From contig OZ219920.1 in NCBI GenBank assembly GCA_964291415.2, forward strand, positions 1,312,001 to 1,376,000: DNA of 64,000 bases. The letters run 5' to 3'. The translations under genes and the position numbers were made by a program. Positions 27,289-29,825 of this stretch are shown one piece after another. This DNA is from Alphaproteobacteria bacterium (lineage in GTDB: Bacteria; Pseudomonadota; Alphaproteobacteria; SP197). Position 1 is the first letter of the stretch. Each line of letters opens with the position of its first letter. The notes beneath the pieces are model-generated. The model saw only the letters and a program-made list of their open reading frames with translations, searched no databases and was not told the DNA's origin.

Positions 27289-27489
27289 GACACTCCTCCT
27301 TCGTTCATGCAACCACGCTCATCCGGCCGGCATGCGCGGCGAGCTGACACGCATTATCCTCATTCTCACACGGGCAGCATTCCGTAGCCGAGACCATGCT
27401 GGTGGAGGTAAAGAAGCGCGTTGCGCTGACGTTCCGGATCCCTTTCTTCCCCATTGTGGTCATCCTGTCGGGCCGGTGTGTCGGCGGCT

Positions 27490-27549
27490 CGCAGCTGGCG
27501 GGTTGAAGAACAGCTCTTGTCGACCTGTCCTGGATTCTCCAAATGAATG
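27490..27549 (+). pseudogene. Left fragment of a type I R-M methyltransferase (HsdM) C-terminus
   Basis: Reads RSWRVEEQLLSTCPGFSK*, resembling HsdM 'HAWRGE...DVPGFCKS', which normally precedes the segment at 28884. Confidence 0.5.
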
Positions 27550-27553
27550 CATG

Positions 27554-27578
27554 GGGAATTGTATACGAAACTTGACAG
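27554..27578 (+). repeat. Left terminal inverted repeat
   Basis: GGGAATTGTATACGAAACTTGACAG. Confidence 0.72.
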
Positions 27579-27585
27579 AATAGAC

Positions 27586-27614
27586 TTGACATCCAATGGT
27601 GTTATCGATATGAA
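27586..27614 (+). promoter_or_regulatory. Candidate sigma70 promoter for tnpB
   Basis: TTGACA (27586-91), 17 nt, TATGAA (27609-14); GGAG RBS at 27645-48. Confidence 0.55.
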
Positions 27615-27655
27615 TTCGTGTCGTAAATCAGTGTTCGCAACACCGGAGTCCCCGC

Positions 27656-28855
27656 ATGTCGTCCTCTGTCGCCTATCGACAGATCACCTTTCGCCTGCTG
27701 CCCGAGAAACGCAGCACCTGGCGGCGGCTGGAGGCCATGCTCGACACGCAGCGCTGTCTCTACAACGCGGCGCTGGAAGAACGGATCGACTGCTACCGGA
27801 AGACCGGCAAGTCACTCACCTACTTCGATCAGGCGAAGTCCCTGACCGTGTGCCGCGAGGCGCTGCCGGACATGGCGGCGGTGCCGGTGGCCATTCAGCG
27901 CGGGACGCTCAAGCGCCTCGATCATGCCTTCAAGGGCTTCTTCCGGCGGGTGAAGCAGGGTGGGGCCGGGTTCCCCCGGTTCCAGGGACGCCGGCACTTC
28001 AACAGCCTTTCCGTGGTCTCCGGCGTCAGGGTCGAGGGCAGTCGCCTGCGCATCCCCGGCCTGGGCTGGCTGACCATCCGCCGCCGGGGCGGCAATCCCT
28101 GGCCGCAGGGCACGCCGGTGAGTGCGGTCCTCAAGCGCGAGGAGGGACGCTGGAAGGCTGTGGTATGCCATGCGGTGTCGCTGCCGGAATCCGACGACAA
28201 CGGCCATGCCGTCGGCGTGGACGTGAATGCGGGCCAGGTGGCGACCTCGGACGGGGAGATCCTGCGCCTGGAGAGGAGCCGGCGTCTCGAGGCCCGTGCC
28301 CGGCGCTGCGCCAAGCAACTGGCGCGGCAGCGCCGTGGCAGCAGGCGGCGGGAGAAGACGCGGCGGCGTCTGGCGAAGACCACCCGGCACATGGCCATGA
28401 AGCGCCATGACTGGCAGCACCACGTCAGTCGCCGGCTCAGTGAGACGGCCGGGACGGTGGTGGTCGAGGATCTGAAGGTCCGCACCATGACCCGCAGCGC
28501 CAGGGGCACGAAGGAGGAGCCGGGACGTCACGTGCGCTCCAAGGCGGGTCTCAACCGCGTCATCCTGGAGACGGGCTGGTCGTCGTTCCGGAGAATGCTG
28601 GACTACAAGGTTCACCGCGTCATCGCGGTGAACCCGGCCTACAGCAGCCAGACCTGTGCAGCGTGCGGCGTCACGAGCGCCCAATCACGCAGGACGCGGG
28701 ACCTGTTTCAATGCGTGGCGTGCGGCCATGCGGATCACGCCGACCTCAATGCAGCGGCGAACATCCTGGCCTCGGGGACTGAGGCATCTGCGCGGGGAGG
28801 TTGCCGGGTTGCCGGGCCTGTGAACCGCGAAATCGATCGGAGGATGGCAGCATGA
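27656..28855 (+). CDS. tnpB: RNA-guided endonuclease TnpB
   Basis: 'LYNAALEER', 'GFPRF', RuvC-I 'VGVDVN', RuvC-II 'VVVEDL', Zn ribbon CAAC/CVAC, RuvC-III 'HADLNAAANIL'. Confidence 0.95.
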   Translation: MSSSVAYRQITFRLLPEKRSTWRRLEAMLDTQRCLYNAALEERIDCYRKTGKSLTYFDQAKSLTVCREALPDMAAVPVAIQRGTLKRLDHAFKGFFRRVKQGGAGFPRFQGRRHFNSLSVVSGVRVEGSRLRIPGLGWLTIRRRGGNPWPQGTPVSAVLKREEGRWKAVVCHAVSLPESDDNGHAVGVDVNAGQVATSDGEILRLERSRRLEARARRCAKQLARQRRGSRRREKTRRRLAKTTRHMAMKRHDWQHHVSRRLSETAGTVVVEDLKVRTMTRSARGTKEEPGRHVRSKAGLNRVILETGWSSFRRMLDYKVHRVIAVNPAYSSQTCAACGVTSAQSRRTRDLFQCVACGHADHADLNAAANILASGTEASARGGCRVAGPVNREIDRRMAA

Positions 28856-28882
28856 CGCTGTCAACTTCTCGATATAAGTCCC
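28769..28882 (+). ncRNA. Putative omega-RNA scaffold core overlapping the tnpB 3' end and right TIR
   Basis: Hairpin GCCTCG-GGGAC-TGAGGC whose loop is complementary to terminal GTCCC (28878-82); true 5' boundary unknown. Confidence 0.55.
28858..28882 (-). repeat. Right terminal inverted repeat
   Basis: Reverse complement GGGACTTATATCGAGAAGTTGACAG; starts 2 nt after the tnpB stop. Confidence 0.72.
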
Positions 28883-28883
28883 C

Positions 28884-29081
28884 ATGAATAATCAGGGCTG
28901 CGTGCTAACGTTGGGCTGCCATGCTGGCGCGGCTCCTGTGGAGGACGACGACGAGCCGTTCGAGGACAAGACGCTATGCCTCGTCAAGCAATTGCGTGAA
29001 CAGCAGGCCGAAGGCTCGCGGCTGTACCGGACTATCGAAGCGAGTCTCGAGGTGCTGGGGTTCGGGAGTGGCGGATCGTGA
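28884..29081 (+). pseudogene. hsdM: C-terminal relic of type I R-M methyltransferase HsdM
   Basis: 'VLTLGCHAGAAPVEDDDEPFEDK...QLREQQAEG..L...IEASLEVLGFG' resembles HsdM 'VLTPGRYVG...EDDGEPFEEKM...LGF'. Confidence 0.75.
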
Positions 29082-29503
29082 CTATCGACACAACATTCCT
29101 GCGACGCTGCATCGGCGTGCTGGAGTGTGCCTCGGAGGAAATCTGTGCACACGACGAGTCGGACGACTTCGTCTACGACATCTATCGCGCGGCCTGCGTC
29201 AAGGAGTTCGAGCTGGTTCTGGAGCAGAGTGGCAAGCTGCTGCGCAAACGACTCGCGGCTTACTTCGCCAGCAATCGGCGGGCGGACCGTCTGACATTCA
29301 GGGATCTCTTCCGTCATGCCGGGAAACACGGCTTGATGGAACCGGAAGCGGTCGAACGCTGGTTCCACTACCGCGACAACCGAAACGATACCGCGCATGA
29401 CTACGGCAAGGACTTCGCCGAAGCGACGCTCAAGCTGTTGCCTGCGTTCATCGCCGACGCGAAGGCGCTGGCCGACGCGATCGAGGCGGGAAACGATGGC
29501 TGA
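29078..29503 (+). CDS. HEPN protein (HI0074-like nucleotidyltransferase substrate-binding family), putative RNase toxin
   Basis: 'KEFELVLE', Rx4H motif 'RNDTAH'; overlaps the hsdM relic stop and the MNT start. Confidence 0.87.
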   Translation: MTIDTTFLRRCIGVLECASEEICAHDESDDFVYDIYRAACVKEFELVLEQSGKLLRKRLAAYFASNRRADRLTFRDLFRHAGKHGLMEPEAVERWFHYRDNRNDTAHDYGKDFAEATLKLLPAFIADAKALADAIEAGNDG

Positions 29504-29825
29504 TCGGCTGCATCTGAAACCGGAGCATCGCCGTACCCTTGAGGCGCTGTTGCAGAAGCACCTGCCCAAGACCGAAGTCTGGGCCTACGGCAGTCGCGTG
29601 GACGGTCGGAGCCACGATGGCAGCGATCTCGATCTCGTTCTGCGCGGCCCGGGCCTGAAGGAGATTCCGATCCTTCAGCTCGGAGACTTCGAGGATGCTG
29701 TGCGGGAATCGAGCATCCCCTTCCTGGTCGAGGCCCGCGACTGGGCCCGTCTGCCAGAGCGGTTTCATCGGGAGATCGAGCGCAATCATGAGGTGTTCTA
29801 TCAACACAATGAACAAGGCAAATAG
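29496..29825 (+). CDS. Minimal nucleotidyltransferase (MNT, HI0073-like), putative antitoxin
   Basis: GSx10DxD 'YGSRVDGRSHDGSDLDL'. Confidence 0.87.
   Translation: MADRLHLKPEHRRTLEALLQKHLPKTEVWAYGSRVDGRSHDGSDLDLVLRGPGLKEIPILQLGDFEDAVRESSIPFLVEARDWARLPERFHREIERNHEVFYQHNEQGK

What the first reader, a model, noticed from the sequence alone, without database searches (positions are those of the whole stretch)
28769..28902. Predicted omega-RNA pseudoknot locks onto the TIR tip, predicting guide and TAM
Seen: in the last 30 codons of tnpB, GCCTCG-GGGAC-TGAGGC (28769-85) forms a hairpin with one G-U pair. Its loop GGGAC is complementary to GTCCC (28878-82), the last five bases of the right TIR. The stop codon is only 2 nt from that TIR. 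Established: TnpB omega-RNAs overlap the ORF 3' end, form a pseudoknot with the element terminus, and take their guide from the flanking DNA. Inference: the scaffold has co-adapted to the TIR. The guide would begin CAUGAAUAAUCAGGGC, and the TAM would lie in TGAATG just left of the left CATG. The nuclease would then cut the empty site but not the occupied one.
Basis: partly seen in the sequence, partly recalled or inferred. Interest (0 to 1): 0.75.

Follow-up and report, generated by a model that had tools for sequence, protein, structure and literature searches.

The report
TnpB guide RNA pairs transposon tip
The end of an RNA-guided nuclease gene folds so that a hairpin loop can pair with the last bases of its transposon, and that transposon is a cut-and-paste type rarely linked to such nucleases in bacteria.

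Summary
The hairpin (28769-28785), its loop GGGAC, the tip GTCCC (28878-28882) and the TGA stop 2 nt before the right inverted repeat are all present.

The gene is an intact TnpB, similar along nearly its whole length to ISDra2 TnpB. Its carrier is not an IS200/IS605 element. It is a 1.33-kb element with 25-nt IS1595-type inverted repeats and 8-bp target duplications. It lacks a transposase; an IS1595-family DDE transposase with matching ends lies elsewhere in the same genome.

Across 33 relatives from two phyla:
- The hairpin stem covaries.
- Three loop-tip G:C pairs never or almost never vary.
- The fourth pair changed on both sides in three lineages and is broken in five single rows.
- The loop is read in two reading frames.

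The geometry, -5..-1 pairing with -108..-104, matches the solved ISDra2 omega-RNA pseudoknot.

Sixty of 61 independent insertions have G immediately 5' of the left duplication, where the predicted TAM must lie. Only 3 of 10 end-flanks of tnpB-less IS1595 copies do.

RNA ends and cleavage are untested. I rate it a new variant of a known kind, because DDE-associated TnpBs are already published.

The parts
27543..27549 (+). Left-flank bases holding the TAM-like motif: ATG at 27543-45 before the 8-mer 27546-53, or TG at 27548-49 before the 4-nt CATG.
Evidence: Base -1 before the left duplication is G in 60 of 61 insertions with an 8/8 duplication. In the alphaproteobacterial set, T is the commonest base at -2 (9 of 22).
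27546..27553 (.). Left copy of the target duplication (8-mer position). Only its last 4 nt, CATG at 27550-53, recur on the right at 28883-86.
   Evidence: The other four copies in this genome have 8-bp duplications (the fourth after a one-base shift of the left boundary).
27554..27578 (+). Left terminal inverted repeat, IS1595-type, starting GGG.
   Evidence: Copy boundaries. It matches the ends of an IS1595-family element at G000:C2:46358-49518.
27656..28855 (+). tnpB, 399 aa, intact.
   Evidence: Pfam PF01385 and PF07282. NCBIfam NF040570 scores 205 bits against a cut-off of 100. ISDra2 TnpB 8h1j matches at E 2e-33 over residues 8-374.
28769..28785 (+). Hairpin 1 of the predicted omega-RNA scaffold. 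Loop GGGAC (28775-79) is the 5' strand of the pseudoknot, at -108..-104 from the element end.
   Evidence: (stem pair 8:20 is GC 24 / CG 8).
28791..28829 (+). Long-range stem (28791-95 with 28825-29) enclosing an inner hairpin (28798-28819).
   Evidence: RNAalifold. Pair 29:84 is AU 30 / GC 3. The minimum-energy fold agrees.
28836..28873 (+). 3' hairpin formed by the ORF end and the inner half of the right inverted repeat. The TGA stop (28853-55) sits in its apical loop.
   Evidence: Minimum-energy fold of the window. An equivalent hairpin appears in most single-sequence folds of the 33 relatives. RNAalifold did not recover it because the alignment register differs.
28858..28882 (+). Right terminal inverted repeat. 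Its last 5 nt, GTCCC (28878-82), are the 3' strand of the pseudoknot.
28883..28898 (+). Predicted guide: the first 16 nt of flank after the element end.
   Evidence: Inferred from the TnpB rule that the guide follows the scaffold (PMC10097598). One metatranscriptome contig runs from the element across the tip into 145 nt of another copy's flank. That shows presence only.

Best explanation
The window holds a non-autonomous transposon, 27554-28882. Its only gene is an intact TnpB RNA-guided nuclease. Its ends are IS1595-type inverted repeats, moved in trans by an IS1595-family DDE transposase that makes 8-bp target duplications.

The last ~114 nt of the element (28769-28882) encode the omega-RNA scaffold. 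It comprises hairpin 1, a long-range stem around an inner hairpin, a 3' hairpin built partly from the inverted repeat, and a free tail. The last bases of that tail (GUCCC) pair with the loop of hairpin 1 (GGGAC) to close a pseudoknot next to the guide, as in ISDra2 TnpB. The transposon tip therefore serves two functions: transposase substrate as DNA, and pseudoknot strand as RNA.

The guide would be read from the flank, that is the right duplication copy plus what follows it. An empty site would then be cut when the base 5' of the duplication is G (TG in this clade). The occupied site is spared because the same position there is the C of the tip.

Shown: the element anatomy, the partner transposase, the covariation, the conserved geometry and the asymmetric G. 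Inferred: that the RNA is made and processed to these ends, that G is the TAM, and that cleavage restores lost copies.
For: Anatomy:
- There are 5 copies in the genome at 92-100% identity, all ending at the same bases.
- 8-bp duplications flank four of them.
- An IS1595-family transposase element with matching ends lies in the same genome.
- In a Rhodothermales genome, 3.7-kb units made of the IS1595 transposase plus the tnpB element are flanked by a single 8-bp duplication. That genome has 271 right-end motifs.

Protein:
- Family models score above their cut-offs.
- The protein aligns along nearly its whole length with ISDra2 TnpB, and the three acidic positions are conserved.

RNA:
- On 33 relatives, 95.4% of cells are paired, against 89.0% in shuffles (0 of 500 shuffles reach the observed value) and 23-46% when the partners are slid.
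- Loop-tip helix: three G:C pairs that hardly vary (33, 33 and 32 of 33). The fourth pair is AU 22, GC 3, CG 2.
- Changes on both sides of that pair occur in three separate lineages on the protein tree.
- The loop is read in phase 0 in the window clade and phase 1 in 19 other rows.
- The window's fold (-50.5 kcal/mol, z -2.06) leaves the tail free.
- In ISDra2, -5..-3 pair with -103..-105. Here -5..-1 pair with -108..-104.

TAM position:
- G at -1 in 21 of 22 alphaproteobacterial sites and 27 of 27 Rhodothermales sites, plus 12 of 12 newly sampled sites.
- The base after the right duplication is C in only 13 of 49 sites, so the signal is one-sided.
- tnpB-less IS1595 copies have G at 3 of 10 end-flanks. 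Fisher p = 3e-6, computed on the first 49 sites.
Against: - The fourth loop-tip pair is broken in 5 rows (L057, L062, L064, L071, L084). The fifth is unpaired in 9 of 33 rows, including all Rhodothermales rows but one.
- Loop and tip lie 100 nt apart and can be inherited or exchanged together. In Paracoccaceae the whole 3' module switches as a block against the protein tree. Part of the covariation is therefore linkage.
- 'Loop complementary to the tip' is formally the same statement as 'loop identical to the reverse complement of the repeat end'. Sequence alone cannot separate RNA pairing from a DNA-level repeat.
- Some single-sequence folds pair the tip with the conserved GGGGAGG stretch instead.
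- No Rfam family matches.
- RNA evidence is contigs from RNA libraries only, which show neither ends nor strand.
- The tnpB-less control for the G is small, at 5 elements.
- Three small tnpB-less elements with one left-type and one right-type end in this genome also have G on the left-type side.
- The window copy has only a 4-nt duplication.
Confidence: 0.65

Rival explanations
1. The loop-tip match is a DNA-level feature or a by-product of linkage. The internal GGGACT would be a subterminal copy of the repeat end, for example an extra transposase-binding site. Alternatively the two sites simply travel together, and no RNA pseudoknot forms.
For: The loop plus the next base equals the reverse complement of the tip in most rows. 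The 3' module is exchanged as a block in Paracoccaceae. There are 5 uncompensated rows at pair 4 and 9 at pair 5.
Against: A covarying stem presents the motif in a loop, which a DNA site does not need (GC 24 / CG 8). The position matches the solved ISDra2 pseudoknot. Whenever the loop base changed (3 lineages), the tip base was its Watson-Crick partner.
Confidence: 0.12
2. An omega-RNA is made from this region, but the tip pairs elsewhere, for example with the conserved GGGGAGG stretch at 28794-28800. Alternatively the scaffold ends before the tip and hairpin 1 plays another role.
For: Minimum-energy folds of 9 of 33 relatives pair the tip with G-runs other than the hairpin-1 loop. L067's tip CTCCC complements GGGAG of that stretch, not the loop.
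Against: That stretch does not change where the tip changes. It is GGCGAGG in Rhodothermales and Paracoccaceae, with tips TTCCC or GTCCC. The loop does change: GGGCC with GGCCC, and GGGGA with TCCCC.
Confidence: 0.1
3. The G before the left duplication reflects target choice by the IS1595 transposase, not a TAM. The top-strand bond between that G and the duplication is the one attacked by the 3' OH of the right end. An element with a distinct right-type end could therefore insert asymmetrically.
For: The chemistry places the G at the bond joined to the right tip (inference from DDE strand transfer). Three tnpB-less small elements with one left-type and one right-type end have G on the corresponding side. 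G in 60 of 61 sites is hard to reach by selection after insertion alone.
Against: The right-type tips differ between clades (AAGTCCC, AAGGCCC, AATTCCC), yet the G is the same in all. DDE target preferences are normally two-fold symmetric (general knowledge). The symmetric part of the preference, A/T at positions 2, 3, 6 and 7, is visible separately. tnpB-less copies show G at 3 of 10 end-flanks.
Confidence: 0.25

Closest known systems
ISDra2 TnpB with its omega-RNA (IS200/IS605 family; PDB 8h1j, 8exa)
   Same: The protein family is the same, with alignment along nearly the whole length (E 2e-33). The scaffold overlaps the ORF 3' end and is about 115 nt long. Its pseudoknot joins the bases just 5' of the guide to bases about 105 nt upstream (PMC10097598, passages).
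   Different: ISDra2 has no inverted repeats and no target duplications. It is moved by a Y1 TnpA and has a 5-nt TAM equal to the transposase target (PMC13565253, passages). Here the carrier has inverted repeats and 8-bp duplications, the pseudoknot strand is the repeat tip, and the TAM-like signal is a single G (TG in this clade).
DDE-transposase-associated TnpB branches (Altae-Tran et al. 2023, PMC10691335)
   Same: All six DDE branches have inverted terminal repeats. The TnpB 3' end lies close to the transposon end. Solo TnpBs carry the same ends as copies that have a transposase (passages).
   Different: The passages I read name IS630. A later review lists ISL2, IS630 and IS1031. IS1595 does not occur in the main text, and supplements were closed. 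The passages I read do not mention the tip-loop pseudoknot or the one-sided G next to the duplication.
Fanzor nucleases in eukaryotic DDE transposons with inverted repeats and target duplications
   Same: A TnpB-family nuclease rides in DDE transposons that make target duplications, and the 5' duplication copy lies at the TAM (review PMC13565253, passages).
   Different: Fanzors are eukaryotic or viral and are longer proteins. Here the host is bacterial and the protein is a compact ISDra2-like TnpB.
IS1595 family insertion sequences
   Same: 8-bp duplications, repeats starting GG, and a transposase with a zinc ribbon plus the DDE_Tnp_IS1595 domain (PMC8101967, passages).
   Different: Family members are described as having a single transposase gene. 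This element carries tnpB instead and depends on a transposase supplied in trans, or sits beside one in 3.7-kb composites.

Membership tests
TnpB RNA-guided endonuclease | Family profile matches above the curated cut-offs | tested here: met
   PF01385 scores 48.6 bits (cut-off 30.5) and PF07282 scores 67.5 (26.3). NF040570 scores 205 bits (100).
TnpB RNA-guided endonuclease | RuvC acidic triad and zinc-finger cysteines | tested here: met
   D189, E271 and D363 align with acidic residues of ISDra2 TnpB. E271, D363 and C334/C337/C353/C356 are invariant in 6 relatives. D189 is D in 5 of the 6 and A in L030. That these are the catalytic positions of ISDra2 is recalled.
TnpB RNA-guided endonuclease | Omega-RNA scaffold overlapping the ORF 3' end, with a pseudoknot next to the guide | tested here: inconclusive
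   Covariation and geometry fit. No RNA ends were seen.
TnpB RNA-guided endonuclease | RNA-guided, TAM-dependent DNA cleavage | not testable with these tools
   Needs a biochemical or interference assay.
IS200/IS605 (IS1341 group) | No inverted repeats, no target duplication, subterminal hairpins | tested here: not met
   25-nt inverted repeats and 8-bp duplications are present. NF038281 scores 161 bits, below its 425 cut-off.
IS607 | No inverted repeats or duplications, and a serine recombinase | tested here: not met
   As for IS200/IS605. NF038280 scores 97 bits, below its 350 cut-off.
IS1595-family element (non-autonomous) | Inverted repeats starting GG and 8-bp target duplication | tested here: met
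   61 insertions have 8/8 duplications. The window copy itself has only 4 nt duplicated.
IS1595-family element (non-autonomous) | Mobilised by a DDE_Tnp_IS1595 transposase that recognises the same ends | tested here: inconclusive
   A transposase with matching ends lies in the same genome. Composites move as one unit in another genome. Transposition itself was not assayed.
Published DDE-associated TnpB branches | Placement of this TnpB in one of the six branches | not testable with these tools
   Branch membership is in supplements that were closed. The main text has no IS1595.

The most novel reading that the evidence does not exclude
A bacterial TnpB is fully integrated into the life cycle of a DDE (IS1595) transposon. 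The transposon's inverted-repeat tip doubles as the pseudoknot strand of the guide RNA. The TAM has shrunk to a single G, because the transposase has no fixed target. That G marks essentially every surviving insertion, up to about 270 copies in one genome. Either the nuclease decides which insertions persist, or target choice has been tuned to create a TAM. This would be a natural, compact, nearly TAM-free RNA-guided nuclease and a bacterial counterpart of Fanzor-bearing transposons.
Probability: 0.4. Interest if true: 0.75.

Novelty: new variant of a known kind. Interest (0 to 1): 0.6.

Why it matters
TnpB homing is understood for IS605 and IS607, which excise without scars and whose target motif is the TAM. 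How, or whether, it works in cut-and-paste DDE transposons that duplicate an arbitrary target is an open question raised in a recent review (PMC13565253).

This family offers a concrete and testable case. The scaffold is defined. The repeat tip has two functions. There are 61 mapped insertions. A one-base signal sits exactly where a TAM must be.

If the TAM really is G or TG, the enzyme would have far looser targeting limits than ISDra2 TnpB, which matters for compact genome editors.

Tried and rejected
- Rfam scan with permissive thresholds over 27300-29200: only a chance snoRNA hit at E 6.
- My first IUPAC pattern for the repeat was mis-specified and found nothing. I replaced it with a fuzzy search in the laid genome.
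- Search for an empty site of the window insertion in 22 other genomes of the genus: only the neighbouring dehydrogenase gene matched and the intergenic flank is not conserved, so no empty allele was found.
- Search for more copies of the small tnpB-less element, as a control for the G: none in 22 other genomes of the genus.
- RNA libraries: contigs of one sponge metatranscriptome cover most of the element, and one crosses the tip. Contigs show no ends, strand or level, and DNA may be present in such libraries.
- RNAalifold did not recover the 3' hairpin, because the alignment register differs between clades.
- Sliding nucleotide identity between clades peaks at 28727-28786 (0.74), but not clearly above coding stretches.
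- Earlier notes of this scan: none for this genome.
- Not run: structure prediction, complex prediction and the large protein searches. The family assignment was already clear.

Full report
OBSERVATION.
- GCCTCG (28769-74), GGGAC (28775-79) and TGAGGC (28780-85) form a 6-bp hairpin whose closing pair is G-U.
- GTCCC occupies 28878-82.
- The tnpB ORF runs 27656-28855. Its TGA (28853-55) lies 2 nt before the right inverted repeat (28858-82).
- 28882 is the real end of the element, because homology among five copies in the same genome stops there.

For the single sequence the match is only suggestive. In 5000 dinucleotide-preserving shuffles of the 178 nt upstream, the tip's complement occurs somewhere in 31%. 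It sits in the loop of a hairpin of 5 bp or more in 2.2%.

WHAT THE ELEMENT IS. The protein is a TnpB.
- Pfam OrfB_IS605 and Cas12f1-like_TNB match. NCBIfam NF040570 scores 205 bits against a cut-off of 100.
- It aligns with ISDra2 TnpB over residues 8-374 at E 2e-33, with the three acidic RuvC positions and four zinc-finger cysteines present.

The carrier, however, is not IS200/IS605-like.
- The 1329-bp element has 25-nt inverted repeats that agree at 18 of 25 positions.
- In the other four copies of this genome it is flanked by 8-bp direct duplications of unrelated sequence.
- The IS200- and IS607-specific TnpB models score far below their cut-offs.
- The same genome holds an IS1595-family element at G000:C2:46358-49518. 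Its transposase carries the DDE_Tnp_IS1595 and zinc-ribbon domains. Its ends match the tnpB element's left repeat with 4-6 mismatches in 25.
- IS1595-family elements are described as having 8-bp duplications (PMC8101967, passages).

Relatives of the TnpB at 43-97% identity occur in 12 of 33 genomes of the family, all in one genus. They also occur in Thalassobaculaceae, Paracoccaceae and Rhodothermales assemblies (447 relatives, best 80 kept). In those I could delimit, a repeat follows the stop directly and 8-bp duplications flank the element.

One Rhodothermales genome has 271 right-end motifs and 55 IS1595-transposase matches. It also has 3.7-kb units, made of the transposase element plus the tnpB element, that are flanked by a single duplication. 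The tnpB element therefore belongs to the IS1595 system and is non-autonomous in the window.

THE RNA MODEL. I aligned 33 non-identical 3' regions, running from 5 nt before the hairpin to the tip, and counted pairs on a structure that includes the pseudoknot.
- Overall, 95.4% of cells pair, against 89.0% after shuffling (0 of 500 shuffles reach it) and 23-46% when partners are slid by 1-3 columns.
- The hairpin stem covaries: pair 8:20 is GC 24 / CG 8.
- A long-range stem (28791-95 with 28825-29) is AU 30 / GC 3 at one pair.
- In the loop-tip helix three G:C pairs hardly vary (33, 33 and 32 of 33). The fourth pair is AU 22, GC 3, CG 2 and unpaired 6. One of those 6 is an alignment artefact in L065. 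The fifth pair is CG 22, AU 1, UA 1 and unpaired 9.
- On a protein tree the fourth pair changed on both sides in three separate lineages: L028+L035, L030 and L059/L065/L066. In each lineage where the loop base changed, the tip base is its Watson-Crick partner.
- The loop is read as a GGG codon in the window clade, but one base out of phase in 19 other rows. The conservation is therefore at the nucleotide level.
- The window's minimum-energy fold (-50.5 kcal/mol, z -2.06) gives hairpin 1, the long-range stem with an inner hairpin, and a 3' hairpin with the stop codon in its loop. The 3' strand of that hairpin is the inner half of the repeat. A free 9-nt tail ends in GUCCC. Many relatives fold the same way on their own.
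- In the solved ISDra2 complex the 116-nt scaffold forms its pseudoknot between -5..-3 (flanked by non-canonical pairs at -6 and -2) and -103..-105 (PMC10097598, passages). Here -5..-1 pair with -108..-104, and the scaffold from hairpin 1 is 114 nt.

AGAINST THE RNA MODEL, OR LIMITING IT.
- Five rows break the fourth pair without compensation (L057, L062, L064, L071, L084).
- The fifth pair is U.U in the Rhodothermales rows and in three of the five Paracoccaceae rows, so only 3-4 pairs are solid.
- Loop and tip are 100 nt apart and can be exchanged together. In Paracoccaceae the whole 3' module switches against the protein tree, so some of the covariation is linkage.
- Sequence alone cannot tell RNA pairing from an internal DNA copy of the repeat end. 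The covarying stem that presents the loop argues for RNA.
- Some folds pair the tip with a conserved G-rich stretch instead. That stretch does not change when the tip changes.
- Rfam has no matching family.

GUIDE AND TAM. If the guide starts after the tip, it is the right copy of the duplication plus the flank. In an empty site the TAM must then be the last bases of the left flank. I collected insertions with perfect 8/8 duplications.
- There are 22 alphaproteobacterial and 27 Rhodothermales sites. A further 12 came from 20 newly sampled right ends.
- The base before the left duplication is G in 21/22, 27/27 and 12/12 sites, that is 60 of 61.
- In the alphaproteobacterial set, T is the commonest base at -2 (9 of 22).
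- The first base of the duplication is never G (0 of 49).
- Positions 2, 3, 6 and 7 are A or T. This is a symmetric preference of the kind expected from the transposase.
- The base after the right duplication is C in only 13 of 49 sites, so the G is one-sided.
- The five tnpB-less IS1595 copies with perfect duplications in the same Rhodothermales genome have G at 3 of 10 end-flanks. Fisher p = 3e-6 against the first 49 sites.
- At the occupied right junction the same position is always the C of the tip.

Both readings give the same empty site, namely the left flank through 27553 followed by the right flank from 28887.

Caveats on the TAM reading:
- The tnpB-less control is small.
- Three small tnpB-less elements in this genome, with one left-type and one right-type end, also show G on the left-type side.
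- The bond 3' of that G is the one joined to the right tip during strand transfer, so a transposase-side cause is possible.
- A frequency of 60 in 61 is hard to reach by selection after insertion alone.

I give the TAM reading about 0.6 and the transposase reading about 0.25.

RNA EVIDENCE. Contigs from a sponge metatranscriptome cover 27569-28882. One 523-nt contig runs from 28505 across the tip into 145 nt of a different flank. This shows only that such sequence is present in an RNA library.

WHAT IS KNOWN. TnpBs associated with DDE transposases, with inverted terminal repeats and with solo copies that keep the same ends, were reported by Altae-Tran et al. 2023 (PMC10691335, passages).
- That text names IS630. 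A 2026 review lists ISL2, IS630 and IS1031 and calls such cases rare in prokaryotes (PMC13565253, passages).
- IS1595 does not occur in that paper's main text. Supplements were closed, so this family may already be among the six branches.
- My full-text searches for TnpB with IS1595 (9 papers, none on this by title or abstract start) and for TnpB with DDE, TAM and TSD found no description of the tip-loop pseudoknot or of the one-sided G.

VERDICT. Two corrections apply: the carrier is an IS1595-type DDE element, and the family duplication is 8 bp. It is a new variant of a known kind. The untested steps are the RNA's existence and ends, the TAM, and cleavage.

Noticed in passing
L012:1407-1704 (G000:C4:1169275-1169572) and G000:C2:344481-344778: A 298-bp element with IS1595-type ends carries a 69-nt copy (91-94% identity) of window 28768-28835, comprising hairpin 1, the conserved stretch and the inner hairpin. 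Two shorter copies (167-174 bp) lack this insert. A metatranscriptome contig contains the junction. The element is absent from 22 other genomes of the genus.
   Followed up: partly
G000:C2:85681-87487 (between L005 and L007): One tnpB copy is interrupted by a 1.8-kb insertion with a 415-aa ORF. Its N-terminal motif looks like an IS110-family transposase. That motif is recalled and was not scanned.
   Followed up: no
window 28883-28886, and G000:C4:883416-883589: The window copy and one small element each share only 4 nt, not 8, between their flanks. In both, the missing 4 nt would lie next to the right-type tip. It is unexplained whether this is a variant stagger or a junction deletion.
   Followed up: partly
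G033 (Rhodothermales genome behind L072): The genome has 271 right-end motifs of the tnpB element in 5.9 Mb. Of 20 newly sampled ends, 12 belong to near-full-length tnpB copies (about 1.4-1.5 kb) and most others to internally deleted, truncated or diverged copies. If most ends mark full-length copies, the family would make up roughly 6% of the genome. In this clade the tnpB stop codon lies inside the right repeat, 5 nt from the tip.
   Followed up: partly
window 29078-29825: Two overlapping ORFs downstream match NTase_sub_bind (PF08780) and nucleotidyltransferase (PF01909) domains. They look like a HEPN/MNT-type pair.
   Followed up: no
L020:1580-2974 (G000:C2:46579-47973): The IS1595-family element with matching ends carries a 464-aa passenger ORF that has no Pfam or NCBIfam match.
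   Followed up: no
window 27416-27492: A roughly 70-nt stretch of the left flank recurs at about 80% identity at several places in other genomes of the genus. It is probably another small repeat.
   Followed up: no
window 28884-29081: A 65-aa ORF starts at the ATG immediately after the element tip and has no family match. It may be a chance ORF in the flank.
   Followed up: no
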